Positions 44,683 through 55,411 of a stretch of DNA of 64,000 bases are shown piece after piece. A model generated the notes under the pieces. It was not told the origin of the DNA, searched no databases, and saw nothing but the letters and a program-made list of their open reading frames with translations. The position numbers and the translations under genes are program-made. Source of the stretch: Patescibacteria group bacterium (GTDB taxonomy: Bacteria; Patescibacteriota; Minisyncoccia; Phycocordibacterales; UBA12079); assembly GCA_018817595.1 (NCBI GenBank), contig JAHITU010000001.1, forward strand, positions 32,109-96,108, in the 5' to 3' direction. Every line of letters starts with the position of its first letter. Position 1 is the first letter of the stretch.

Positions 44683-45207
44683 ATTAGTTCATAATATCAT
44701 AATTAATGGGTTTTTATAAGATATTGAAAGGGAGGGATTCGGTCACTCTCATGGATATTTATTTCACCAGCACTTTTGTAAAAAGTGCTGGGTATATTCG
44801 TTCGGTTCGAATTCCTCCCTCTCATTCATAGGTTGCTAATTTCAAATACCTTAATCGGTATTTGAAATTAGCAATGCGGAGAGGGAGGGATTCGGTCACG
44901 AATCACTAAGTAAAATTTTTCGCAAGCTCAAATTTTACTAAGTGTTCTCGACCCCGACTCGCCAGTATGAAAATTCACTGAAGTGAATTTTCTCTGGCTC
45001 CGTCCTTCGAATCCCTCCTCACTGACAAAACAATAATAAAAGACAACAACTTAGGTTGCTGTCTTTTATTATTGTTGCGGGCAACCTCGGTCTGGAACCG
45101 TAGGTTACCAAGCCCTGCAAGGCGGTTTTAAGCTTTTTAGAGCTACTAACCGAAGGATCCTCGTGCGCCTTTATTTTTTATATCTAATCAATTCTTCTAA
45201 TAATAAA

Positions 45208-45801
45208 TTAACCATAAACCTGTTTACATTGATCTGCAGTTAATGTAAATTTAGAAAGTTTCGGCATTACTTCTTGAGCTTTTATAGCATCATCAAAAAA
45301 ATCATTAACTTCTTTTAGAGTTATTTTAATTTCATCAATACTTATAGATGGGTTTCCTATATGATGAATTATTAAATTTCTTTTATTTAAAAACTTATGA
45401 CAACTACTTACAAAATCCTTTAAATATTGGTTTATTTCTTCGAGTTCATCTTCGTCGAGATCACCTTTTAATTTTCTTAAAGGAATCATTTTTTTAATAT
45501 TTTTAAGTATTTTTCGGGTATCTATTTTTTCTTCATAAAAGAACTGATCCTCTTTAGGTTTTTTGAATTCCTGTTTAGTTTCAAGAGCTTCTTTAACCCA
45601 TATTTGCTCTAATACTCTAAATACCTGAATGCAAGAAAATTCAAGTAATCCAGCTCTAATTGTAAGTCCACCTATTTGTTTTGCTAGATTTTCTGATTCT
45701 ATTGCAGTTTTTGCAATTTGAGTTAATTTATTTAATTTAGATATTTGATTCATTTTAATTAAATTATTTATTAATTTTAAAAAGTGACAAAAGTGACACA
45801 T
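45208..45801 (-). CDS. Hypothetical protein with a possible HEPN (Rx4HH) motif
   Basis: 197 aa. KRNLIIHH near the C-terminus. Last gene of the six-gene minus-strand operon. Confidence 0.35.
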   Translation of the reverse strand: MCHFCHFLKLINNLIKMNQISKLNKLTQIAKTAIESENLAKQIGGLTIRAGLLEFSCIQVFRVLEQIWVKEALETKQEFKKPKEDQFFYEEKIDTRKILKNIKKMIPLRKLKGDLDEDELEEINQYLKDFVSSCHKFLNKRNLIIHHIGNPSISIDEIKITLKEVNDFFDDAIKAQEVMPKLSKFTLTADQCKQVYG

Positions 45802-45834
45802 AATTGATATATAAAGTTACACTCCTCTGTAACT

Positions 45835-46764
45835 CTACGCTTCCCGTTTCTCAAACTCTTCTTCAAACTTCTTAAGTATTTCAGGTTGTAAGCAGTATTC
45901 TCTTATTTTTTTCTCCTGTTTACTACTTATCGTGTTTTTATATTTAGCATAATTTAGTAACTGTATATCTGGAAACGAGAATCTGGCATTAATCTTTTTG
46001 CCCCTGTGTATTACATGGAAATGTTTATCGTGGTCATCACTGTATACTCTCAATTCAAAACCCTGAAAGTCGGAAACTAATCCTTTGAGTAGTGGACCTC
46101 TCCATTCTAGAGCATCTTTGTATCGATCTTCCAACTCTTTTTCCTTCTTATCATTCTCGCTATAAAGATAATCTTCAAATGAGTCTTCTGATTTCTCGAG
46201 TATATCTAAAATTCCTACAGCAATACCAATATTTTTGCCGTGAATATGTTGCTCCGTGTCTAAAGATTTTTGTTTACGACTTTCATATATTTTTGATAAT
46301 TCCGCGTAATAATTTTTAAGATCATCTTCATATTGTGTGATTACTTTGCCAATCTTACCATGACGTTCTAGTATTTCCTGATCAGCACCTTTTTCCGGTT
46401 CCAGCTCTTTGACGATTATCGGTATAAAAATTGATTGTTCTTTTTCACTTTGACCACTCAGTTTAATGGTCATTCGTCCTTGTGACTCTTTTATAAAACC
46501 AACGTTAAATTGATTAAATTGAAATACTTCCTTAAAAGTGATATATCCAAATAATCTTGATAAAAGAGTGACTTTACCAACCGATATGTTTGAACCAAGT
46601 ATTGTTTGAGCTTTGATATCTATCAGTTCCAGACTGATGTCTCTAGAAAAACCGTACGGGGTTTTTAGCCAAGACAACGGGACATTCCCCGAGATGAGGA
46701 ATCTAGCGCCAACGTTTTGAAATGGTTTTGGATCCGATATGTAGATTTTATTTTCTCTTCGCAT
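45835..46764 (-). CDS. Protein with a C-terminal DUF4160-like domain
   Basis: 309 aa. VYSDDHDKHFHVIHRGKKINARFSF matches the DUF4160 signature (YSNDHxPPHxHV...F). The N-terminal 230 aa are unassigned. Confidence 0.45.
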   Translation of the reverse strand: MRRENKIYISDPKPFQNVGARFLISGNVPLSWLKTPYGFSRDISLELIDIKAQTILGSNISVGKVTLLSRLFGYITFKEVFQFNQFNVGFIKESQGRMTIKLSGQSEKEQSIFIPIIVKELEPEKGADQEILERHGKIGKVITQYEDDLKNYYAELSKIYESRKQKSLDTEQHIHGKNIGIAVGILDILEKSEDSFEDYLYSENDKKEKELEDRYKDALEWRGPLLKGLVSDFQGFELRVYSDDHDKHFHVIHRGKKINARFSFPDIQLLNYAKYKNTISSKQEKKIREYCLQPEILKKFEEEFEKREA

Positions 46765-46978
46765 TTTTAATTAACTTTACTAAATCTTCTTCTTTTTCAT
46801 AAACCCTAAATTTTCCAGACAAGACACCAAGTCTGTAATCTATACCTTCACTCATTAATCGCCAGTTTGTATCTTCTAATCTTTTCTTTATTAATTTCTT
46901 CAAATTATTTTTACTATCATATTCGTTTTCTGTTTTAGAGTCTTCGAGAGTAAAAGATAAAGAAACAATTCTATCCAT
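46748..46978 (-). CDS. Small hypothetical protein (76 aa) overlapping the DUF4160 gene
   Basis: 17-nt overlap with the downstream gene. No motif recognised. Confidence 0.35.
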   Translation of the reverse strand: MDRIVSLSFTLEDSKTENEYDSKNNLKKLIKKRLEDTNWRLMSEGIDYRLGVLSGKFRVYEKEEDLVKLIKNAKRK

Positions 46979-47050
46979 ATCAGGTTTATCAAAGATAAGA
47001 TTAGAATAATGAGTGTCTTTTAAAATTTCAACAACATGTTCTTTAAAACA

Positions 47051-48439
47051 CTACTCGTATTGAGAATGAATATTTTTTACATAATCTTCTGTTACTTGCA
47101 AAATTTCATCGAATGTTAGTATTTCAATATTTTGCAAAGAATTTCTTAGTTTAGTGAAGTCTCTTTTTAAACATTTACTTTTCACTTTATCTAGCTTACT
47201 TGTTGTTAATTTTTTATTGGAGGAAATAATAATAATTCCTCTTGGGTGATAAAGATTTTCTTCTTCTGTTATATTGGTAATTTTTTTCTCATCGGAGCTA
47301 TTTTGGAATCTTTTTTGAACTATAGCGTCCATGTAATTCATAGTTTGTATAATTGCCTTACTAAGTTCTGAAGAAAAACCAAAATTTTTATGAGAAGGAT
47401 CCCAGACAAGAGTGGTTTTTAAATGAGTTTTAATCTCAATAATATCAAGACCGTTATAATGATTTACACCAACAAAATCAGGATATTTTTTATCACCTTC
47501 AACATCTTTGAATTCAATTTTAGGATATATTTTTTTGTAAGAAAATACGAGATATAATAAATATTTCTCAAAAAATTTCTGCCACAAACTTTCAAGTTGG
47601 TTTATTTCTTCAACATTATCAACAATTTTTAATATTACATTTTTAGCCTTTTCCGTCTTCATGTCTGTCGTTCCCAGGCTAAGAATTTCTTTTCCGATTA
47701 TTATAATATCCTTCAGTTTTTCTTTTATAAAGTATTCGTCAAGAGATCTTAAAAAATCAGATGAAAAAACCTCGTCTTTAATTAATTTTTCTGTAAAATA
47801 TTCTAAATTATTTGTATCTTCTATATCTAGATAATTTATATAGTCTTTCTTTTCATTTTTATTTTTTAAATTAAAACGCTCCACCATAAAAGAAAAATCT
47901 CCTTTAGCAATAGTCGTTGTTTCTCTAGGCATCTTGTTTGTATATTTTAATTTTAATTTATTTATTAAGAATGTTTCTAGTCTATTTTTACTAGACTTTC
48001 CTTTTTTAAAAACCTCGTAAGAATCAGAGGCCATATCAATAAAAATCGACTCGGGGATTTGTATAGTTTTTTCTTTTGTTTTCCTTAATATTTTTTTGCC
48101 ACCGTAGATTATTTTTATCTTTTCAAAAGAGTTATTGATATCTAATATATTTTTTATATATTCAAACCAACTTATATCATATCCATTAATATAACGAACA
48201 TTTAAGACATCCCAAATATTAGTTTTATATGAAATTACCAAAGTTTGTCTATTATTCTTTTTTTCATAAATATTTTTTGACTTTTTATAGTAATAAAAAT
48301 CAATATAAACACTTTTATCATCAAAGATAACAATGTTACCAGCAGGGCAAGATATTTTTTCATCTTCAAAAACCATCTCTGGCCACTCTAGATTTTTAAA
48401 GAATTCAATAATTTTTTCTCTAGATTCTCTTGGGGTCAT
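47051..48439 (-). CDS. Putative PD-(D/E)xK nuclease (Shedu/DUF4263-like C-terminal domain)
   Basis: 462 aa. C-terminal KYPDFVGVNHYNGLDIIEIKTHLK shows a PD...(D/E)xK arrangement, then ...QTMNY. The N-terminal 330 aa have no recognisable motif. Confidence 0.45.
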   Translation of the reverse strand: MTPRESREKIIEFFKNLEWPEMVFEDEKISCPAGNIVIFDDKSVYIDFYYYKKSKNIYEKKNNRQTLVISYKTNIWDVLNVRYINGYDISWFEYIKNILDINNSFEKIKIIYGGKKILRKTKEKTIQIPESIFIDMASDSYEVFKKGKSSKNRLETFLINKLKLKYTNKMPRETTTIAKGDFSFMVERFNLKNKNEKKDYINYLDIEDTNNLEYFTEKLIKDEVFSSDFLRSLDEYFIKEKLKDIIIIGKEILSLGTTDMKTEKAKNVILKIVDNVEEINQLESLWQKFFEKYLLYLVFSYKKIYPKIEFKDVEGDKKYPDFVGVNHYNGLDIIEIKTHLKTTLVWDPSHKNFGFSSELSKAIIQTMNYMDAIVQKRFQNSSDEKKITNITEEENLYHPRGIIIISSNKKLTTSKLDKVKSKCLKRDFTKLRNSLQNIEILTFDEILQVTEDYVKNIHSQYE

Positions 48440-48649
48440 TTATTTTTTCTTACGATTATAAGGTGATTGATTTGTAGGTTTTAAGCTAACACCAAGATTC
48501 GATGCTTTGCTACTAACTCCTCCTACTGGTCGACCGAGTTTAAGTCCAATAACACGCGTTGGTGTATTTTTCCTCGCAAGTTCTTTTAATTGTTTTTCTT
48601 CAATAGGTGTCCATTTTTTACCTGCATTTTTTATATATTTTTTTACCAT
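48440..48649 (-). CDS. Small basic putative DNA-binding protein (69 aa)
   Basis: WTPIEEKQLKELARKNTPTRVIGLKLGR. Abuts its neighbours with 1-6 nt gaps in an operon. Confidence 0.4.
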   Translation of the reverse strand: MVKKYIKNAGKKWTPIEEKQLKELARKNTPTRVIGLKLGRPVGGVSSKASNLGVSLKPTNQSPYNRKKK

Positions 48650-48654
48650 GTTTT

Positions 48655-49305
48655 TTATAAGTTAGGATTTTTAATAATATCGACAACTTTACCACTAATA
48701 ATTAAATCACTTTCATCAACAAAAATAGGGTGATGTCCTTTTTCTGTTGATTCTGATACAAGAATAATTTGTTTATTTTCTTGATCTAGTTTATATTTTT
48801 TAATATTTGCAAGACCGTCTATTACTGAAACTACAACATCATTTGGTCTGGGTCTTGAATAATTACTATCTACAACAACATAATCACCATCTTCTATATT
48901 TTTACCGTTAACGTTTGTGTTATTCATTGAATTTCCACTAGCTATAATTACATATAATTCTTTTTTACGATGAGGTAACCTTTTTGAAGATATTTTAAGA
49001 TATCCTTCAATTCTTTCATTTGCGAAAATGGTTGCTGGACCACAATTTGCTGAACCAACTATAGGTAATGAAAAAATATTTGTTTTATTACCTATACCTA
49101 CAACACCTCTTTTTACGACGTTAATTATATTCTCACTAAGATTAACCCTAAGTAAACCTTTTTTATCAAGTTGTAATAAATGATGTTTAGCAATTTGAGG
49201 TTTATTTGATGCTCCTATAAGGTTAGCTATCTGCCTAAGACTCATTTTCCCTAAATTGGGATTATCTTGGGCAAGATTATAAAGTTTTTGTTGATATTCA
49301 TTCAT
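48655..49305 (-). CDS. LexA/CI-type S24 peptidase repressor
   Basis: 216 aa. Winged-helix N-terminus (MSLRQIANLIGASNKPQIAKHHLLQLDKKGLL). Catalytic Ser in ASGNSM and Lys in ANIKKY. Confidence 0.75.
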   Translation of the reverse strand: MNEYQQKLYNLAQDNPNLGKMSLRQIANLIGASNKPQIAKHHLLQLDKKGLLRVNLSENIINVVKRGVVGIGNKTNIFSLPIVGSANCGPATIFANERIEGYLKISSKRLPHRKKELYVIIASGNSMNNTNVNGKNIEDGDYVVVDSNYSRPRPNDVVVSVIDGLANIKKYKLDQENKQIILVSESTEKGHHPIFVDESDLIISGKVVDIIKNPNL

Positions 49306-49349
49306 ATGTGCCTATTATAACAAATTTAGTTAAATAATGCAAGTTTTTA

Positions 49350-49366
49350 TGTAAAGTATTTTTACA
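49350..49366. promoter_or_regulatory. Candidate operator palindrome TGTAAA-N5-TTTACA next to a TTGACA-N17-TAATAT promoter
   Basis: tgtaaagtatttttaca at 49350-49366. The -35 TTGACA is at 49370-49375 and the -10 TAATAT at 49393-49398, driving the + strand gene at 49443. Lies in the divergent lexA-like region. Confidence 0.4.
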
Positions 49367-49442
49367 CTCTTGACACATAAACTTCTTAAGAGTAATATTA
49401 AGCATAGTCGAATATTATTAATATTAATTAACATAAAATATT

Positions 49443-49673
49443 ATGTCAAAATACATTCTTAATCAAAATAAACAGGATTCTAAAAGTGGTGAAAATTATG
49501 AATTACACAACGAAGAAACTTGTCATCACTTACCTGATCCAGAGAATAGGCTTTTTGTAGGATATTTCGATAATTGTCACGATGCTAAAGCACGTGCAAA
49601 AGAAAGATACCCATTAATGAGTTCTGATATTGATGGTTGTTATCATTGTTGCAATTCTTGTCACAATGAATAA
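49443..49673 (+). CDS. Small Cys/His-rich protein (putative zinc-binding)
   Basis: 76 aa with 7 Cys and 5 His (CHHLPDPEN...CHDAKARAKERYPLMSSDIDGCYHCCNSCHNE). A sigma70-like promoter lies upstream. Confidence 0.45.
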   Translation: MSKYILNQNKQDSKSGENYELHNEETCHHLPDPENRLFVGYFDNCHDAKARAKERYPLMSSDIDGCYHCCNSCHNE

Positions 49674-49823: not shown

Positions 49824-51116
49824 ATGAATAAGAAAAATTTATTGCCACTTGAATGGCATACAGAGAAATTATTAGTTAAAGATTTGAAATCTTGGAAAGA
49901 AAATCCGAGAACAATTACAAAAGAAAGTCTTGCAAAGTTAAAGGATAGAATTATACAACGAGGGATGCATGATGTAGTAAAAATAGATACAGATAATACA
50001 ATCTTATCAGGAAATCAAAGAAGAAAAGTGCTTATTGATATGGATATAAAAGAAGTAACCGCTCTTATCCCTAATCGACCTCTTACAAAAGAAGAAAGAG
50101 ATAAAGTCGCACTTGAAAGTAACCATAACGATGGTGAGTGGAATTTTGATGAATTAAAATCATTTGACTTAGACACTCTTATCGATGTAGGTTTTGATAA
50201 AACAAGGTTGGAAGATATATGGGACGAACATTTAGAAGTAACTAATGATGATTTTGATGAAGTCGCTGAATTAGAAAAAATAAAGGAAACAGATATTAAA
50301 TCAGGTGACATGTTTAAATTAGGAAAACACACTTTAATTTGTGGAAATGCTCTTGATCCAAATGTTGTTAACCGTCTTATGGGAGATGTTAGAGCTGATT
50401 TTATTGATGATGATTTACCTTTTAACATAGGTTTATCTTATGATAAAGGAGTGGGTAATAAATCGAGTTATGGTGGTACAACAGATGATAACAAAACAGA
50501 TGAAGAATATAGAATTTTTGTAAAAACAATTATACAAAATGCATTATCTGTTTCAAAACCAAATTGTCATTATATCTTTTGGTGCGACGAAAGATATGTC
50601 TGGTTATTTCAGACTCTATATAAAGAACTAGGAATTGATTCTAAAAGATTGCTTATTTGGTTGAAGAATAATAGTTCCCCGACACCCACTGTAGCATTCA
50701 ATAAAGTAACAGAATTTGCCGTATACGGTACTCGTGGAAAAGTTTATCTTTCTAAAAGTGTTAACAACTTACATGAAATTACTAACAAAGAATTTACAAC
50801 AGGTAATAGTTTATCTGAGGAAATTCTAGATCAGTTGAATATTTGGATAGTTAAGAGACTACCAAGTAACCAATATTCTCACCCTACGCAGAAGAATCCT
50901 GAATTACATGAAAAAGCGCTTCGTAGATGTACAAGATCAGGTGATGTTGTTTTGGATTTAACAGCAGGTTCAGGAAGTTTACTTTCGGCATGTGAACAAT
51001 TAAATCGTGTAGCGTATTTGTGTGAATTAGAACCAATATTTTGTCAGGTCATTATTAATCGTTTCCATGCTCAAACTGGAATTAAAGCAGTAAAAATAGA
51101 ACATGAAAAAAGATAG
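49824..51116 (+). CDS. ParB-like nuclease domain fused to an N6/N4 DNA methyltransferase
   Basis: 430 aa. N-terminal ParB box (SGNQRRKVL). Beta-class MTase order with motif IV-like DDDLPFN before motif I LDLTAGSGS. Confidence 0.7.
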   Translation: MNKKNLLPLEWHTEKLLVKDLKSWKENPRTITKESLAKLKDRIIQRGMHDVVKIDTDNTILSGNQRRKVLIDMDIKEVTALIPNRPLTKEERDKVALESNHNDGEWNFDELKSFDLDTLIDVGFDKTRLEDIWDEHLEVTNDDFDEVAELEKIKETDIKSGDMFKLGKHTLICGNALDPNVVNRLMGDVRADFIDDDLPFNIGLSYDKGVGNKSSYGGTTDDNKTDEEYRIFVKTIIQNALSVSKPNCHYIFWCDERYVWLFQTLYKELGIDSKRLLIWLKNNSSPTPTVAFNKVTEFAVYGTRGKVYLSKSVNNLHEITNKEFTTGNSLSEEILDQLNIWIVKRLPSNQYSHPTQKNPELHEKALRRCTRSGDVVLDLTAGSGSLLSACEQLNRVAYLCELEPIFCQVIINRFHAQTGIKAVKIEHEKR

Positions 51117-51519
51117 AGTCCAATCAAAACTTATCAAAGAACTAGAAAAAGTACCGATTGTGAGTGTTGCTTGTCGACGAAGTGGTGTATCACGTAATAG
51201 TTTTTATCGATGGTGTAATGAAGACCCTTATTTCGCATCACTAATAAATGACGCGTTGATAGAAGGAGAAGATTTTATAAATGACTTAAGTGAAAGTCAA
51301 TTAATAACCCTTATCAAAGAAAAAAAGTTTTCTGCGATTCGTTTTTGGCTAACACATCGTCATTCTAAATTCAAAAAGCAAGAGAGAGAAATATCTAAAA
51401 AAGACGATTTCGATTCCGAAATGGTTATTAAGACATTAGGATTAACCGATGAAGATTTCAAAGATGAGAATCTTAAAGAAACTACAAATAAAATTACTGA
51501 TCACCTATTAAATCTATAA
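51103..51519 (+). CDS. HTH DNA-binding protein (terminase-small-subunit-like)
   Basis: 138 aa. VSVACRRSGVSRNSFYRWCNEDPYF HTH. Overlaps the MTase gene by 14 nt. Confidence 0.45.
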   Translation: MKKDRVQSKLIKELEKVPIVSVACRRSGVSRNSFYRWCNEDPYFASLINDALIEGEDFINDLSESQLITLIKEKKFSAIRFWLTHRHSKFKKQEREISKKDDFDSEMVIKTLGLTDEDFKDENLKETTNKITDHLLNL

Positions 51520-51522
51520 AGA

Positions 51523-52047
51523 TTATTCAATCCATTCCATAACCTCTAGATAATCATATCCAGTTGCAAAATCAATATTTTGATTAAGGTTTTTAGCTGT
51601 TCCGTTAACTGCTTTAACTAAAGATTCTAACTTAGATTTATCTGTTATGTTTAGAGCTTCATATGAAGGAATAAGAAATATAGCTTTTCCTAAATTTGTA
51701 TCCATTATTCCAATATACCCATCTCCTTTTCTATTTTTGGTTGCATAAAATGGATATTCATAAATTTTTGGATCGTTATCAACTATCCTTGCAATAGTGT
51801 ATTGAACAAACACAGCAGATAAATTTTTATCTTTATCTATTATTGTATTTTCAAGTCTATTTAAACTAGTTGTATAAGGGTTAGGTTTAACAATTTGTTT
51901 TGTATTAATAACTTCCTCTGCTTTATTGTTGTCTGTTTTTTCAACAATATTTATTGTTTTACTAATTTCTTTTGTTGAATCATTAGATCCTAATAAATAG
52001 AGAAATGTAACAAAAACAAAAATCCCTAATAATATTTTTCTTCTCAT
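51523..52047 (-). CDS. Hypothetical secreted protein
   Basis: 174 aa with an N-terminal signal/TM segment (MRRKILLGIFVFVTFLYLLG). Confidence 0.4.
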   Translation of the reverse strand: MRRKILLGIFVFVTFLYLLGSNDSTKEISKTINIVEKTDNNKAEEVINTKQIVKPNPYTTSLNRLENTIIDKDKNLSAVFVQYTIARIVDNDPKIYEYPFYATKNRKGDGYIGIMDTNLGKAIFLIPSYEALNITDKSKLESLVKAVNGTAKNLNQNIDFATGYDYLEVMEWIE

Positions 52048-52050
52048 TTT

Positions 52051-52215
52051 TCGCGTAGGTTTTAATTAATAATGATCTAGTATAGTAAAAACAAAAATGG
52101 CTACACAAGACCGACGGCAACCCTCTTTCGAAGATTACCCTGCCTCCCTTTCGGGTGCAGACCTACGCGAATAAGTGCCGGCTTATGTAGCCGTTTTTAT
52201 TCGCGTAGGTTTTTT
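52051..52215. repeat. GC-enriched inverted/direct-repeat cluster upstream of the serine recombinase
   Basis: Direct repeat ttcgcgtaggtttt at 52051 and 52201. Inverted repeats cctacgcgaa/ttcgcgtagg and ggctacacaag/cttatgtagcc. Confidence 0.5.
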
Positions 52216-52317
52216 ATTTGTACCATGCTAAATGTAAATTTAGTTTAGGTATTGTCAATTGATATAATACAGTATCCTTAATGTATTATCTACTCATTAT
52301 ATCGCAGTTCATTTGTT

Positions 52318-53715
52318 TTGCTAAGGAAAGTTACCAACACGTTGTCGACATCAAAATGCTTAGCAAAAGACTCTTTCTCTGTCATTAATATAGGTATGGA
52401 AACGAATACATTTTCACAACAAACTCAATCGGCAATTATTCCAGATATTAAAATGAGATATTGTTTATACGCAAGAAAAAGTACGGAATCAGATGAACGG
52501 CAAGCTTTATCCATAGAATCACAAGTTAAAGAAATGTTACAGATAGCCGAAAGAGAAGGTCTTGAAATTGTTGATATTAGAAGAGAATCTAAATCAGCTA
52601 AAGATTCAAATAATAGACCTGTTTTTAAAGAATTACTTCTTGATATATCAAAAGAACGATTCAATGCTATCCTCACATGGGCACCTGATAGATTATCTAG
52701 AAATGCAGGTGATCTTGGTTCGGTTGTAGATTTAATGGATGCTAAAAAACTTTTAGGTATTCGTACTTACGGACAGACATTTTCAAATTCTCCAAATGAA
52801 AAATTTCTTTTAATGATTCTTTGTTCTCAAGCAAAATTAGAAAATGACAATAGAGGTATAAATGTAAAAAGAGGATTAAGAACCAGATGTGAAATGGGAT
52901 TATGGCCAACTTGTCCACCCACAGGATATTTCAAAGAAAAAAGAATGGATAGGAAATGTGAGTGTATCATAGATGAAAAAAGAGCTCCTGTTATAAAACA
53001 AATTTTTGAAAAAGTAGCTTACGAAAAATGGTCTGGTAGAAAACTTTATCATTGGCTTAGATTTGATTTAAACTTCAGAACAGAATTAGGAAAGAAACAT
53101 TTAAGTTTAGGAAATATTTATCGATTATTAGAAAACACATTCTATTATGGAACTTTTGAATATCCTAGAGGTAGTGGTAATTGGTATCAAGGGAAACATA
53201 AACCAATTATTACAAAAGAATTGTTTAATTTAGTTCAAGAACAAGTAAAAAATTCTCAATTGGTTAGAAAAGAAAATATAGAATTTGCATTTACTAAAAT
53301 TATGAAATGTGGATTATGTGGTTCTGGAATTTCGGCAAGTGAGAAATTTAAAAAGTTAAAAAATGGAGATTTTAACCGTCATATATATTATGGTTGTACT
53401 AAAGCAAAAGATAAAAATTGTAAATGTGGTTATATCAATGAAACTGATTTGATTAAACAACTACAAAAACTTGTAGATAAATTAGATTTTAAAAAAACTC
53501 TTATAGAAGATAAAATTAAATTAGAAATTAAGAGATTTAAAAAATTTCAAAATATGATTGTTGGTAAAAGTAATGAAATCAAAGTAAGTGATGTAGATAT
53601 AAAAAATTATATAAAATTTATTTTGAAAGAGGGGGAAAATCAAGAAAAAAGAGAATTAATGAAATGTTTTAAATCAAGAATAAAGATAGTTAAGAAAAGT
53701 ATAAATATTAATTAA
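52318..53715 (+). CDS. Large serine recombinase (resolvase/integrase family)
   Basis: The catalytic N-domain YARKSTESDERQALSIESQ contains the nucleophile Ser. A recombinase domain and a Cys-rich zinc ribbon (CGLCGS...C...C) follow. The true start is probably internal (M27 or M46, near 52396 or 52453). Confidence 0.8.
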   Translation: MLRKVTNTLSTSKCLAKDSFSVINIGMETNTFSQQTQSAIIPDIKMRYCLYARKSTESDERQALSIESQVKEMLQIAEREGLEIVDIRRESKSAKDSNNRPVFKELLLDISKERFNAILTWAPDRLSRNAGDLGSVVDLMDAKKLLGIRTYGQTFSNSPNEKFLLMILCSQAKLENDNRGINVKRGLRTRCEMGLWPTCPPTGYFKEKRMDRKCECIIDEKRAPVIKQIFEKVAYEKWSGRKLYHWLRFDLNFRTELGKKHLSLGNIYRLLENTFYYGTFEYPRGSGNWYQGKHKPIITKELFNLVQEQVKNSQLVRKENIEFAFTKIMKCGLCGSGISASEKFKKLKNGDFNRHIYYGCTKAKDKNCKCGYINETDLIKQLQKLVDKLDFKKTLIEDKIKLEIKRFKKFQNMIVGKSNEIKVSDVDIKNYIKFILKEGENQEKRELMKCFKSRIKIVKKSININ

Positions 53716-55151
53716 ACATTTAATATAGATTGTAAACGCTCTTCTAGAATTGAATCAAAATTTTTATCTGATTCTTTTCGTAATTCAATCATATCTATTA
53801 AATCTTTATCAGATAGTGGAAATATAATTACTCCATGGCGAAGATAGTGTTGTTGAGAACGTTTAATATCATTATTAGAAATATCCTTTCTTTGTATTAA
53901 AAATATAAATTCTCTACGATCTTTTAGTGTATAACCTAAGGCTTGATTAAATTCCTTATTTCCTACTTTTGTTTTATCAAAATTTTTTGCTTCGATGATT
54001 AATGAGGCAACAATAATTTTAGTTTTCTCTATAACTTTAAAAAAATTTGTTTTTGATGCGTTCAAAAAGTTTACATCATATCTATAAGTATCACCAAATG
54101 AACGAGTTTCTATTTTACCTCTTAATAAATTATCCCCATAAAGAGCTTGGAAAATTTTCATTAACATCTGACTATATTCAGCAGACATTTCACTTCCTGG
54201 AATAATATTTTCTATTTCTTTTATATATTTATCCCAATTTATTTTAGGTTTTCTCGGTCTACGTTTGTTCTCAAATTTATGTGGATTATCTACGTATTTA
54301 TTAATTAATTTTGGTCTTTCTTCTGAAAGTTTTCTTGCTGCAGAAATAACTCCTTTAACTTTAAATTGACGAAGTAATTTTTCTTCTATATCTTTTATTA
54401 ATACTTTAGGTTCTTTTCCTATACTACCAAAAGAATTTATACGCGATATTTCTTCATGTTGAAGTATATATTTAAGAAAACCTTTATAAAATTCATCTGT
54501 AGATAAAATTGGCATTTTTCTAACTATATGCCTAGGTACTAAAAGCCTATACTCTCCATTATTAAAATAAGGTAGATTAACTTTTAGTCTAGGTTTCCAT
54601 TCTTTTGAATTAAAATCAAAACCTCTTGGTAAAGGAACAGTTATTGTTTTTAAATCATAAGTTTCAACTTGTTCTTTTGTGTATTTAATTAAGTTATCAA
54701 GAGCAAATCCTGCAGTCATATCAGATATAAGATCTGGGCCAAAACCTTCTATTTGAATAACTAATTCAGCCAAGGCTTTCAACCCAACTTTTTTTATATC
54801 AGGATTATCAAAAATAGTTTCCTTAAGAAGTAATGCTCTTTTTCCTGCTGTTCCTGAACCTTCTGTTCCTTTTACACAGTGACCAAATCCTAACTCCTGA
54901 GCTTCTGGAAAATGTAAAAATTCTAGTAGTTTAGCAGTATTAATCTTTTTATTTTTATATTTTTCAAGTAAATCATTAAAATACCAAAACATCATAGCCT
55001 GAACTTCATTCCAGATTTTATCATCTGTTTCGTACATTAAATAAACATCTAAATATACCGGGATATCTTTATCCTTATCAGGAAAAATAAAATCAACTTC
55101 ATATTGTTTATACTCAGATTGAATGTCATCAAGTGTTTTTAGTTTTTTCAT
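53712..55151 (-). CDS. Hypothetical protein with a possible C-terminal PD-(D/E)xK-like motif
   Basis: 479 aa. ...YDVNF...IIVASLIIEAKNF (D...ExK). Convergent with the recombinase gene. Confidence 0.35.
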   Translation of the reverse strand: MKKLKTLDDIQSEYKQYEVDFIFPDKDKDIPVYLDVYLMYETDDKIWNEVQAMMFWYFNDLLEKYKNKKINTAKLLEFLHFPEAQELGFGHCVKGTEGSGTAGKRALLLKETIFDNPDIKKVGLKALAELVIQIEGFGPDLISDMTAGFALDNLIKYTKEQVETYDLKTITVPLPRGFDFNSKEWKPRLKVNLPYFNNGEYRLLVPRHIVRKMPILSTDEFYKGFLKYILQHEEISRINSFGSIGKEPKVLIKDIEEKLLRQFKVKGVISAARKLSEERPKLINKYVDNPHKFENKRRPRKPKINWDKYIKEIENIIPGSEMSAEYSQMLMKIFQALYGDNLLRGKIETRSFGDTYRYDVNFLNASKTNFFKVIEKTKIIVASLIIEAKNFDKTKVGNKEFNQALGYTLKDRREFIFLIQRKDISNNDIKRSQQHYLRHGVIIFPLSDKDLIDMIELRKESDKNFDSILEERLQSILNV

Positions 55152-55324
55152 TTGATTTTTTATACAATTATATTAATTAATAATACAAAATATAATCATA
55201 TAACACCATAGATAATTTAAAATATATAAATTTAAATGAATAATAATAAATAAAAAACACCTAATTAGGTGTTTTTTATTTATTAAAGCTATTTCGTGCT
55301 AGCACGATGTTGCGGAGAGGGAGG

Positions 55325-55411
55325 GATTCGAACCCTCGGAGGTTTTAACACCTCGGCACGTTAGCAGTGTGCTGGTTTAAGCCACTCACCCACCTCTCCG
55401 TGTTTTTATTT
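55325..55411 (-). tRNA. tRNA-Ser (anticodon GCU), long variable arm
   Basis: Acceptor GGAGAGG/CCTCTCC, D stem GGT/ACC, anticodon loop CUGCUAA, variable arm GAGGT...ACCTC, T arm GAGGG-TTCGAAT-CCCTC. The 3' end is the element's direct-repeat core. Confidence 0.7.

What the first reader, a model, noticed from the sequence alone, without database searches (positions are those of the whole stretch)
45208..49305. Six-gene co-directional operon inside the island: a candidate uncharacterised defence or abortive-infection module
Seen in sequence: the genes abut with gaps of 1-72 nt or overlap, all on the minus strand. Their order is LexA/CI-like repressor, 69-aa basic protein, 462-aa PD-(D/E)xK-like nuclease, 76-aa protein, 309-aa DUF4160-like protein, and 197-aa HEPN-like protein. 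The repressor has an intact catalytic Ser in SGNSM and Lys in ANIKKY. The 462-aa protein has a large novel N-terminal domain and a C-terminal PD-x12-DIIEIK core. The 309-aa protein has a 230-aa unknown N-domain fused to a C-terminal DUF4160-like HxHxxH region. The HEPN-like Rx4HH motif lies near the C-terminus of the last gene. Inference: a nuclease with a Shedu/DUF4263-like core, a DUF4160 fusion and a HEPN protein, all under an SOS-type autocleavable repressor, does not match any canonical defence system layout. It may be a damage- or phage-induced defence or toxin module on a mobile element.
Basis: partly seen in the sequence, partly recalled or inferred. Interest (0 to 1): 0.8.

Follow-up and report, generated by a model that had tools for sequence, protein, structure and literature searches.

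The report
Shedu nuclease in a mobile element's repressor operon
The six genes are real, but they are not a new six-part defence system: one is the already known single-gene anti-phage nuclease Shedu, carried behind the repressor gene of a 10-kb integrated mobile element in a Patescibacteria genome, and the other genes are unrelated passengers that do not travel with it elsewhere.

Summary
All six minus-strand ORFs (45208-49305) exist as described. The 462-aa protein is a clear Shedu/SduA nuclease (Pfam SduA_C 2.9e-19; PADLOC SduA 2e-14), a known stand-alone defence system, so a canonical system is present. The cluster lies inside a 10.46-kb island. The island is bounded by a perfect 20-bp direct repeat of the tRNA-Ser 3' end. 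It also carries a large serine recombinase, LOOT RNA, a TerS-like gene and a ParB-methyltransferase.

In at least 8 related metagenomic or genomic loci the same backbone recurs, with a repressor gene followed by small ORFs and SduA. The repressor is S24-type in six loci and ImmR/ImmA-type in one.

The 309-aa protein has an Ig-like domain, a coiled coil and a DUF4160-like domain. It belongs to a Patescibacteria family with 117 hits. The last gene is probably 181 aa rather than 197 aa and is HEPN-like, with a conserved RNxxxH. Neither protein is found beside SduA elsewhere (0 of 22 SduA loci), and SduA is absent from all 13 loci holding the 309-aa family. The 76-aa ORF matches only the C-terminal end of a 355-364-aa family.

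Verdict: Shedu is cargo in the immunity operon of a mobile element. It is co-transcribed with the repressor rather than shown to be repressed by it. It is a new member of a known kind and of modest interest.

The parts
44875..44894 (.). Distal copy of a perfect 20-bp direct repeat, equal to the 3' end of tRNA-Ser(GCT). It is the likely att site at the island's left edge.
   Evidence: blastn-short gives 20/20 identity with 55311-55330, E 1e-6. Partial or inverted copies lie at 44729-44741, 44804-44823 and 45006-45018.
45031..45074 (-). Terminator-like hairpin with a 20-bp stem and a T tail, downstream of the last gene of the leftward operon.
   Evidence: It lies in a very structured non-coding stretch, 44715-45200, with fold z = -13.5.
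45208..45801 (-). HEPN-like protein. The probable true start is 45753, giving 181 aa. It is a predicted stand-alone RNase-type toxin or effector.
45835..46764 (-). 309-aa protein with an N-terminal Ig-like beta-sandwich, a coiled-coil linker and a C-terminal DUF4160-like domain. Its function is unknown; it is a candidate effector.
46748..46978 (-). 76-aa ORF that matches only the C-terminal ~70 residues of a 355-364-aa Zn-ribbon protein family. It is probably a truncated remnant or a stand-alone domain.
   Evidence: 55% identity to the C-terminus of L030:6906-7973 and 46% to L044:11370-12461. These two proteins are 42% identical over their full length. It also matches L045 and L046.
47051..48439 (-). 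SduA (Shedu) PD-(D/E)xK nuclease, with a ~280-aa N-terminal and linker region and a C-terminal DUF4263 core.
   Evidence: Pfam SduA_C 2.9e-19, 70.2 bits against a cut-off of 27. Nine PADLOC SduA models match, the best at 2e-14. 289 homologues were found; all 120 listed carry PF14082. D321, D332, E335 and K337 are invariant in 30 sequences.
48440..48649 (-). 69-aa basic protein, a small probable DNA-binding protein. It occupies a variable slot between repressor and SduA.
   Evidence: phrog_323 'transcriptional regulator, D5-like', partial match at 3e-10. No counterpart was found in related loci, which hold other small ORFs such as DUF2188 in this slot.
48655..49305 (-). S24-family LexA/CI-like autocleavable repressor, the element's immunity repressor.
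   Evidence: Peptidase_S24 3.6e-16, covering the full profile. phrog_4 repressor 1.9e-20. TIGR00498 lexA scores 70.8 bits, below its 110.95 cut-off. Homologues of 41-55% identity sit upstream of SduA in L020, L022, L023, L042 and L043, and a weaker one in L025.
49306..49442 (.). Divergent control region between the repressor operon and the rightward genes.
   Evidence: Back-to-back promoter-like sites: + strand TTGACA-17-TAATAT at 49370-49398, and - strand TTGACA-17-TAATAT at 49449-49421. TTATGT/ACATAA half-sites are repeated. The region is AT-rich, so this evidence is weak.
49443..49673 (+). 76-aa Cys/His-rich protein, the first gene of the rightward operon.
   Evidence: phrog_4298 6e-21. It is 82% identical in L023 and L043, again divergent from an S24 gene.
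49824..51116 (+). ParB-like domain fused to an N6/N4 DNA methyltransferase.
   Evidence: Pfam N6_N4_Mtase 2.3e-21. phrog_498 1.3e-70 and phrog_620 ParB-like 5.5e-15.
51103..51519 (+). TerS-like HTH protein.
   Evidence: phrog_4044 terminase small subunit 3.9e-07. In related elements it is followed by a true TerL (phrog_38, 3e-82 in L006), which is absent here.
51523..52047 (-). 174-aa protein with an N-terminal membrane anchor, in the variable slot downstream of LOOT.
   Evidence: No family hits.
52116..52251 (-). LOOT RNA (RF03000), 66 nt upstream of the recombinase gene and divergent from it.
   Evidence: 60 bits against a gathering score of 46.4. The same position is occupied in L006, L010, L020, L021 and L042.
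52318..53715 (+). Large serine recombinase (integrase).
   Evidence: Resolvase 3.3e-20, Recombinase 4.6e-13 and Zn_ribbon_recom 6.4e-07. phrog_95 integrase 4.5e-61.
53712..55151 (-). 479-aa protein of a phage-associated family with unknown function.
   Evidence: phrog_27295 2.9e-23. No Pfam hit.
55312..55399 (-). tRNA-Ser(GCT). Its 3' end (55311-55330) is the proximal copy of the 20-bp direct repeat and marks the island's right edge.

Best explanation
The region is the repressor-side ('immunity') operon of a 10.46-kb integrative element. The element sits at the 3' end of tRNA-Ser(GCT) in a Patescibacteria genome.

The first gene encodes an S24 LexA/CI-like repressor. It faces, across a 137-bp divergent control region, the element's rightward genes: a small Cys/His-rich protein, a ParB-methyltransferase and a TerS-like protein.

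Behind the repressor gene, in the same transcription unit, the element carries a Shedu (SduA) nuclease. Shedu is a known single-protein anti-phage system. Its PD-(D/E)xK core is held inactive by its N-terminal domain until infection.

Because SduA is co-transcribed with the repressor, it is most likely expressed while the element is quiescent. It would then protect the host and the element against incoming phage or other DNA, as rexAB does downstream of cI in lambda.

The three genes further downstream are independent passengers and not subunits of one system:
- a 76-aa remnant of a 355-364-aa family;
- the 309-aa Ig-like, coiled-coil, DUF4160-like protein;
- a 181-aa HEPN-like protein that may have its own promoter.
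The DUF4160-like and HEPN-like proteins are each plausible stand-alone toxin or effector genes.

Shown: the gene identities, the island borders, the recurrence of the backbone and of the repressor-SduA order, and the non-recurrence of the other genes.
Inferred: the expression state, the defence role in this host and the toxin activity.
For: - SduA identity: Pfam SduA_C 2.9e-19 and nine PADLOC SduA models. The catalytic D/E/K residues are invariant.
- Island: a perfect 20-bp repeat of the tRNA-Ser 3' end at 44875-44894 and 55311-55330. The island holds a serine integrase, a TerS-like gene and a ParB-MTase.
- Recurrence of the backbone: MTase, TerS and, where present, TerL and SerRec lie on one side, with a regulator gene and SduA on the other, in L020, L021, L022, L025, L030, L031, L042 and L044.
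- The regulator is S24-type in L020, L022, L023, L025, L042 and L043. In L044 it is swapped for HTH_3 plus Peptidase_M78, with SduA still downstream. This is mosaic exchange of an immunity module, not a fixed repressor-nuclease partnership.
- No terminator-like site lies between 49305 and 45208. A strong one lies at 45074-45031.
- The 309-aa family occurs without SduA in 13 loci, beside tRNA genes or at the edges of SerRec elements.
- HEPN-like homologues occur alone, once among Mrr- and HNH-type genes.
- Shedu is documented as a single-gene system with 79 N-terminal domain families and 121 prophage-borne instances (bioRxiv 10.1101/2023.08.10.552793).
Against: - There is no expression data. 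An autoregulated LexA-like promoter would also make the operon SOS-inducible, so 'on during quiescence' is an inference from the lambda and ICEBs1 analogy.
- The element lacks TerL and any capsid gene, so its mobility and type (satellite, defective prophage or integrative island) are unresolved.
- Large serine recombinases do not normally generate 20-bp direct repeats, so the repeat may stem from an earlier tyrosine-integrase event or from tandem accretion.
- The related loci were found by searching with SduA or with the 309-aa protein separately. Many contigs are short, and only 12 SduA loci have at least 1 kb of sequence downstream of SduA. Rare co-occurrence cannot be excluded.
- The SduA profile did not reach the solved Shedu structures by sequence, and I could not model the N-terminal domain.
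Confidence: 0.75

Rival explanations
1. All six genes form one new multi-component defence or abortive-infection system: a nuclease, a DUF4160 effector and a HEPN RNase, switched on when an SOS-type repressor cleaves itself.
For: The genes are tightly packed and co-directional, with no terminator-like site until 45074-45031. Three of the products have nuclease- or toxin-like features.
Against: The set never recurs. 0 of 22 SduA loci hold the 309-aa or HEPN-like gene, and 0 of 13 loci with the 309-aa family hold SduA or the HEPN-like gene. HEPN-like homologues sit alone in other contexts. SduA functions alone in published work. The S24 gene is exchangeable for ImmR/ImmA. The 76-aa ORF matches only the C-terminal end of a larger protein family.
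Confidence: 0.05
2. The 309-aa DUF4160-like protein and the adjacent HEPN-like protein form a two-gene toxin-antitoxin or Abi pair. The pair happens to lie downstream of Shedu.
For: The two genes are 33-81 nt apart. DUF4160 is the toxin of the DhiTA pair and an effector domain in Menshen NsnC proteins (PMC8198452, PMC12065111). HEPN proteins are common toxins (PMC3710099).
Against: None of the other 13 loci with the 309-aa family has a HEPN-like neighbour. None of 3 informative HEPN-like loci (L037, L038, L039) has a DUF4160 neighbour. There is no DUF2442 or MNT partner. The HEPN-like gene has its own promoter-like site.
Confidence: 0.08
3. The S24 protein is the host's own LexA, and the cluster is an SOS-regulon damage-response operon of the chromosome, not mobile-element cargo.
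For: The best NCBIfam hit is lexA, TIGR00498 at 1.2e-19. A weak LexA DNA-binding domain hit is present.
Against: The score of 70.8 bits is below the equivalog cut-off of 110.95. The gene lies inside a repeat-bounded island with an integrase. It is divergent from phage-type genes. Close relatives keep the tRNA-Ser to 309-aa gene arrangement at the same PilM-ComF-RecG locus without this gene. Its counterparts in other elements are only 41-55% identical and can be replaced by ImmR/ImmA.
Confidence: 0.05

Closest known systems
Shedu (SduA, DUF4263/PF14082) single-gene anti-phage nuclease, including prophage-borne Shedu
   Same: The C-terminal SduA_C PD-(D/E)xK core has intact D...D..ExK residues. 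There is a long N-terminal region ahead of the core. It is a single gene located on a mobile element; 121 prophage instances are reported in bioRxiv 10.1101/2023.08.10.552793.
   Different: The host is a Patescibacteria (CPR) bacterium. The N-terminal ~280 aa have no Pfam assignment, although PADLOC model PDLC00393 aligns from residue 92. A profile of this clade does not reach the solved Shedu sequences. The gene holds a fixed position downstream of the element's repressor gene.
Lambda cI-rexA-rexB and ICEBs1 immR-immA: defence or accessory genes co-transcribed with the immunity repressor of a temperate element
   Same: The repressor gene comes first, is divergent from the element's lytic or transfer genes, and has accessory genes behind it in the same operon. 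The repressor is SOS-sensitive (S24 autocleavage here, an ImmA-type protease in L044).
   Different: The cargo is Shedu rather than RexAB. The element is ~10 kb with a serine integrase, a ParB-methyltransferase, TerS and sometimes TerL, and no capsid genes. Expression has not been measured.
Phage satellites / PICI-like islands
   Same: The element is small (10-12 kb), integrated next to a tRNA, has an integrase, a repressor and terminase-subunit genes, has no virion structural genes, and carries defence cargo.
   Different: The element uses a serine rather than a tyrosine integrase. It has no identified primase or replication module and no known helper phage. The window's copy lacks TerL. A LOOT RNA lies next to the integrase gene.
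HEPN superfamily RNase toxins (e.g. HepT, AbiV, RiboL-PSP-HEPN, MAE_28990-like)
   Same: It has a four-helix up-down core with an insert between helices 2 and 3. The R-N-x3-H motif is at the end of helix 3. A conserved acidic residue is in helix 2.
   Different: No Pfam, PADLOC or NCBIfam HEPN model matches significantly. There is no MNT or other partner gene. The family is small, with 44 cluster representatives.
DUF4160 (PF13711): DhiT toxin of DhiTA and the C-terminal effector domain of Menshen NsnC
   Same: The C-terminal ~70 aa carry the His-rich DUF4160 signature, and some family members reach PF13711.
   Different: The domain is fused to an Ig-like domain and a coiled coil in a 309-aa protein, whereas most DUF4160 proteins are single-domain. 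There is no DUF2442 partner. The family is typically found directly 3' of tRNA genes or at the edges of serine-recombinase elements.

Membership tests
Shedu (SduA) | DUF4263/SduA_C nuclease domain above the curated threshold | tested here: met
   PF14082: 70.2 bits against a cut-off of 27, E 2.9e-19, residues 282-447 covering profile positions 3-159 of 159. Nine PADLOC SduA HMMs match, the best at 2e-14.
Shedu (SduA) | Intact PD-(D/E)xK catalytic residues | tested here: met
   P320-D321, D332, E335 and K337 are invariant across 30 homologues of 44-76% identity.
Shedu (SduA) | Works as a single gene, with no obligatory partner | tested here: inconclusive
   No neighbouring gene is conserved across all 22 SduA loci. 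A 355-364-aa Zn-ribbon protein is adjacent in 2 loci, L030 and L044, and its C-terminal domain is the window's 76-aa ORF. Function was not tested.
Shedu (SduA) | Anti-phage activity; homotetramer with N-terminal autoinhibition | not testable with these tools
   This needs phage challenge and biochemistry.
S24 LexA/CI/UmuD-type autocleaving repressor | Peptidase_S24 domain with a Ser/Lys dyad | tested here: met
   PF00717 3.6e-16 over profile positions 1-116 of 116. The Ser lies in G-N-S-M and the Lys in A-N-I-K-K.
S24 LexA/CI/UmuD-type autocleaving repressor | N-terminal DNA-binding domain and a cleavable Ala/Cys-Gly linker | tested here: inconclusive
   LexA_DNA_bind gives only E 0.077. The TIGR00498 alignment spans residues 22-213. 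A Cys-Gly lies in V-G-S-A-N-C-G-P, at the position of the LexA Ala-Gly and UmuD Cys-Gly sites. That placement rests on my reading of the sequence and on memory, not on a test.
LexA proper (host SOS repressor) | Equivalog-level score | tested here: not met
   TIGR00498 scores 70.8 bits against a cut-off of 110.95. The gene lies inside the island.
HEPN superfamily | Rx4-6H motif with a polar residue after R, at the end of helix 3 | tested here: met
   R125, N126 and H130 are at least 90% conserved in 31 sequences. The motif lies at the end of helix 101-132, before the 133-138 loop. The criterion comes from PMC3710099.
HEPN superfamily | Four-helix up-down core, an insert between helices 2 and 3, and a conserved acidic residue in helix 2 | tested here: met
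   The model has pLDDT 95.4, with helices at 2-18, 23-58, 101-132 and 139-167 and an insert at 59-100. E49 is at least 90% conserved in helix 2. Spatial proximity of E49 to the motif was not measured.
HEPN superfamily | Significant profile or fold match to a known HEPN family | tested here: inconclusive
DUF4160 (PF13711) | Match to the Pfam model | tested here: inconclusive
   The window protein has no hit at E<=1. 3 of 117 homologues carry a precomputed PF13711 hit. The DH-x2-HFH ... RFSFP signature is invariant.
DhiTA-type DUF4160/DUF2442 toxin-antitoxin pair | Adjacent DUF2442 antitoxin gene | tested here: not met
   Neither neighbour (the 76-aa ORF or the HEPN-like protein) has any DUF2442 hit. 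No partner is conserved across 13 loci.
HEPN-MNT toxin-antitoxin pair | Adjacent minimal nucleotidyltransferase gene | tested here: not met
   No nucleotidyltransferase (MNT-type) domain was found on the neighbours in the window or in L037-L039.
Integrative mobile element (prophage or satellite-like) | Integrase, att repeats at a tRNA, repressor, phage-type genes | tested here: met
   Large serine recombinase. 20-bp direct repeat of the tRNA-Ser 3' end. S24 repressor, ParB-MTase and TerS-like gene. Relatives carry TerL. Two relatives are in IMG/VR.
Complete temperate phage | Capsid, portal and tail genes | tested here: not met
   No virion structural family was found among the island's ORFs. 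The only packaging-type hit is the TerS-like gene. The island is only 10.46 kb.

The most novel reading that the evidence does not exclude
The leftward operon could be a stack of three independent single-gene immune or toxin effectors: Shedu, an Ig-like DUF4160 effector, and a HEPN RNase of a family absent from Pfam. All three would be expressed from the immunity promoter of a previously undescribed family of Patescibacteria integrative elements. These elements have a large serine integrase with a LOOT RNA beside it, a ParB-methyltransferase, TerS and sometimes TerL, and a repressor. Their two variable slots, behind the repressor and behind LOOT, would then be a natural catalogue of defence genes in CPR bacteria. 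Unknowns in those slots include the 435-aa (L006), 326-aa (L022) and 355-364-aa (L030, L044) proteins.
Probability: 0.3. Interest if true: 0.55.

Novelty: new member of a known kind. Interest (0 to 1): 0.3.

Why it matters
Defence systems and mobile elements of Patescibacteria (CPR) are poorly charted, and these organisms are mostly uncultured. This locus shows that a standard bacterial defence nuclease, Shedu, is spread in CPR by one recognisable family of small tRNA-targeting elements, in a fixed slot behind the immunity repressor. That gives a practical handle for mining CPR defence cargo, because one can look in the same slot.

The locus also flags two uncharacterised families worth testing as toxins or effectors: the 309-aa Ig-like DUF4160 protein and a HEPN-like protein.

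It does not reveal a new kind of defence system, and the central gene is already explained.

Tried and rejected
1. Sequence searches of the PDB with SduA (single sequence and 30-sequence profile), the 309-aa profile and the HEPN-like profile gave nothing meaningful.
3. The AFDB50 Foldseek library was unavailable.
4. IMG/VR scans for the 309-aa family and for SduA found no relatives. The HEPN-like alignment was too variable to build search patterns.
5. Three of the five HEPN-like contexts were contigs too short to be informative, under 2 kb.
6. I rejected the NCBIfam hit of the 309-aa protein to 'guided_TnpB' (24 bits against a cut-off of 100). It falls on the coiled-coil region and is probably compositional.
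7. I rejected the weak Pfam hits LinB-like_C, crAss_CARG1 and YxiF (E 0.01-0.09).
8. I looked for a displaced tRNA fragment between SduA and the 309-aa gene, which would have placed the 309-aa gene outside the island. None was found; the only good copies are at 44.7-45.0 kb.
9. I found no Rfam family for the structured 44715-45200 region.
10. A literature search for LOOT gave no functional information.
11. I considered an operator motif in 49306-49442 (TTATGT/ACATAA repeats). I did not claim it, because such hexamers are common in 28% GC DNA.

Full report
**1. Observation**

- 48655-49305, 216 aa
- 48440-48649, 69 aa
- 47051-48439, 462 aa
- 46748-46978, 76 aa
- 45835-46764, 309 aa
- 45208-45801, 197 aa

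The spacings are 5, 0 and 72 nt, then a 17-nt overlap, then 33 nt. The quoted motifs are all present. Three details need correcting:
- The nuclease motif is PD-x10-DIIEIK, not x12.
- The last gene most likely starts at M17 (45753), giving 181 aa. That is where its homologues begin to align, and it is the 181-aa length of the database record for this protein. A promoter-like site at 45790-45763 lies inside the putative extension.
- The RNxxxH motif therefore sits at residues 125-130 of 181, not near the C-terminus.

**2. What the genes are**

*Repressor.* The 216-aa protein is a full-length Peptidase_S24 match (3.6e-16), and it matches PHROG repressor family phrog_4 (1.9e-20). It resembles LexA, but it scores below the equivalog cut-off (70.8 against 110.95 bits).

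*Nuclease.* The 462-aa protein is SduA:
- Pfam SduA_C gives 70.2 bits against a cut-off of 27.
- Nine PADLOC SduA models match it.
- 289 homologues were found; all 120 listed carry PF14082.
- D321, D332, E335 and K337 are invariant.

Shedu is an established single-gene defence system. Its nuclease core is regulated by highly diverse N-terminal domains (79 families), and it has been reported in 121 prophage loci (bioRxiv 10.1101/2023.08.10.552793). The claim that the locus matches no canonical system is therefore wrong.

*Last protein.* It looked like an orphan in the word-indexed search, but full HMMER found 44 cluster representatives.
- The alignment shows conserved Q43, R46, E49 and R125-N126-x3-H130.
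- The model (pLDDT 95.4) is an up-down helical bundle. The motif sits at the end of the third long helix, there is an insert between helices 2 and 3, and an acidic residue lies in helix 2.
- These are the defining HEPN features in Anantharaman et al. 2013 (PMC3710099).
- Profile and fold searches were not decisive.

I therefore call it HEPN-like with moderate confidence.

*Small ORFs.* The 69-aa ORF matches part of a PHROG regulator family (3e-10). The 76-aa ORF matches only the C-terminal ~70 residues of a 355-364-aa Zn-ribbon protein family, so it is probably a remnant or a stand-alone domain.

**3. Context**

The cluster lies in an island bounded by a perfect 20-bp direct repeat, 44875-44894 and 55311-55330. 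The repeat is the 3' end of tRNA-Ser(GCT). Across a 137-bp divergent region with back-to-back promoter-like sites, the other strand carries, in order:
- a phrog_4298 protein;
- a ParB-like N6/N4 methyltransferase;
- a TerS-like protein;
- a membrane-anchored 174-aa protein;
- a LOOT RNA;
- a large serine recombinase;
- a phrog_27295 protein.

No virion structural gene is present. A strong terminator-like hairpin at 45074-45031 follows the last gene, and none lies within the cluster. One leftward transcription unit is therefore plausible.

**4. Comparative test of the 'one system' idea**

I collected three sets of loci:
- 13 independent loci with the 309-aa family;
- 22 loci with close SduA homologues;
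- 5 loci with the HEPN-like family.

I searched all of them with every window protein.

*SduA loci.* SduA recurs inside the same backbone in L020, L021, L022, L025, L030, L031, L042 and L044. The layout is serine recombinase, LOOT, variable gene, TerL where present, TerS and ParB-MTase on one side, and a regulator, small ORFs and SduA on the other. The regulator is S24-type in L020, L022, L023, L025, L042 and L043. In L044 it is an HTH_3 plus Peptidase_M78 (ImmR/ImmA-type) pair, with SduA still downstream. That is what mosaic exchange of an element's immunity module looks like. It is not what a dedicated repressor-nuclease partnership looks like.

*The other genes.* None of the 22 SduA loci has the 309-aa or HEPN-like gene. 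Of these, 12 have at least 1 kb of sequence downstream of SduA. None of the 13 loci with the 309-aa family has SduA or the HEPN-like gene.

*Where the 309-aa gene sits instead:*
- directly 3' of tRNA-Ser(GCT) at the same PilM-ComF...RecG locus in relatives that lack the element (L001, L008);
- directly 3' of tRNA-His (L002, L007);
- at the edge of serine-recombinase elements (L006, L010, L012), in two of which housekeeping genes (RuvB; DnaG and RpoD) lie upstream.

HEPN-like homologues are solitary, once among Mrr- and HNH-type genes.

**5. Mechanism**

*Shown:*
- a known defence nuclease lies in the repressor-side operon of an integrated element;
- that position is conserved across the element family.

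*Inferred:*
- Like cI-rexAB in lambda or immR-immA in ICEBs1 (established knowledge, from memory), genes behind the repressor gene are transcribed while the element is quiescent. Shedu would then be constitutively available to protect the host and the element.
- Self-cleavage of the S24 repressor would derepress the rightward genes.
- Whether the leftward promoter is also autoregulated, and hence SOS-responsive, cannot be decided from sequence.
- SduA itself would act as published: an autoinhibited tetramer, released by its N-terminal sensor, that cuts DNA.
- The DUF4160-like and HEPN-like proteins are best treated as separate candidate toxin or effector genes.

**6. Novelty and score**

The central gene is already explained, and Shedu on prophage-like elements is documented. 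The new points are modest:
- the CPR host;
- the fixed cargo slot in a recognisable element family;
- two uncharacterised families.

I rate it as a new member of a known kind, with interest 0.3.

**7. Side finding**

LOOT RNA (RF03000, function unknown) lies 66-168 nt upstream of the serine recombinase gene, and divergent from it, in the window and in L006, L010, L020, L021 and L042. It also occurs in L022, L030 and L031. It is always followed by a variable gene, often one encoding a membrane-anchored protein. LOOT therefore appears to be a component of this mobile-element family, and that may be worth more follow-up than the original finding.

Noticed in passing
window 52116-52251 (-); L006 4483-4595; L010 15141-15257; L020 2089-2218; L021 3776-3898; L042 6284-6407; also L022 1-117, L030 1660-1778, L031 17040-17160: LOOT RNA (RF03000, 54-86 bits against a gathering score of 46.4) is a constant part of this element family. 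In six loci it lies 66-168 nt upstream of the large serine recombinase gene and divergent from it. It is followed on its own strand by a variable gene, often one encoding a membrane-anchored protein. It could be a 5' leader, an sRNA or a recombination-related RNA. I found no published function.
   Followed up: partly
window 44715-45200: This non-coding stretch between the island and the chromosomal 183-aa gene is extremely structured (RNA fold z = -13.5). It holds two direct and two inverted partial copies of the tRNA-Ser 3' end, and a GC-rich segment at 45080-45170. No Rfam family matches. It may hold stacked att remnants and terminators, or an unknown ncRNA.
   Followed up: partly
window 46748-46978; L030 6906-7973; L044 11370-12461; L045 483-1544; L046 345-1439: The 76-aa ORF matches only the C-terminal domain of a 355-364-aa family of Cys-rich (Zn-ribbon-like) proteins with no Pfam match. 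The family lies next to SduA in two loci (upstream in L030, downstream in L044). It also occurs in two IMG/VR contigs of the same element family that lack SduA.
   Followed up: partly
L044 9139-9970: In one element the S24 repressor is replaced by an HTH_3 (XRE) protein plus a Peptidase_M78 (ImmA/IrrE-type) protein, directly upstream of a 68%-identical SduA. This is a swap of the immunity module.
   Followed up: partly
L001 5859-6933; L008 9582-10912; L002 5781-6960 (= L007): The 309-aa Ig-like DUF4160 family sits directly downstream of a tRNA gene in the same orientation: tRNA-Ser(GCT) twice and tRNA-His once. No att repeat was detectable after it. Elsewhere it sits at the very edge of serine-recombinase elements (L006, L010, L012). 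It may mark, or travel with, integration sites.
   Followed up: partly
L021 1110-2285 and 7497-8906: One element copy carries two different Shedu genes, one at each end. One is a 391-aa SduA (PADLOC PDLC00391, 5e-142) beyond the recombinase. The other is the 469-aa homologue of the window's SduA, in the repressor-side operon.
   Followed up: no
L006 8649-9956 (435 aa); L022 3984-4964 (326 aa): These proteins have no Pfam, PADLOC or PHROG match and occupy the repressor-side cargo slot. In L006 the 435-aa protein takes the place of SduA. In L022 the 326-aa protein lies between the repressor and SduA. Both are candidates for unknown defence genes.
   Followed up: no
window 49443-49673 (+): A 76-aa Cys/His-rich protein (phrog_4298, 6e-21) is the first gene of the rightward operon. 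It is 82% identical in L023 and L043, although the facing S24 repressors are only ~44% identical. It occupies a Cro- or antirepressor-like position.
   Followed up: no
window 51103-52047 compared with L006 5208-6743 and L020 3014-4489: Related elements carry a true large terminase (phrog_38, up to 3e-82) after the TerS-like gene. The window's copy lacks it, so this copy may be defective or satellite-like.
   Followed up: partly
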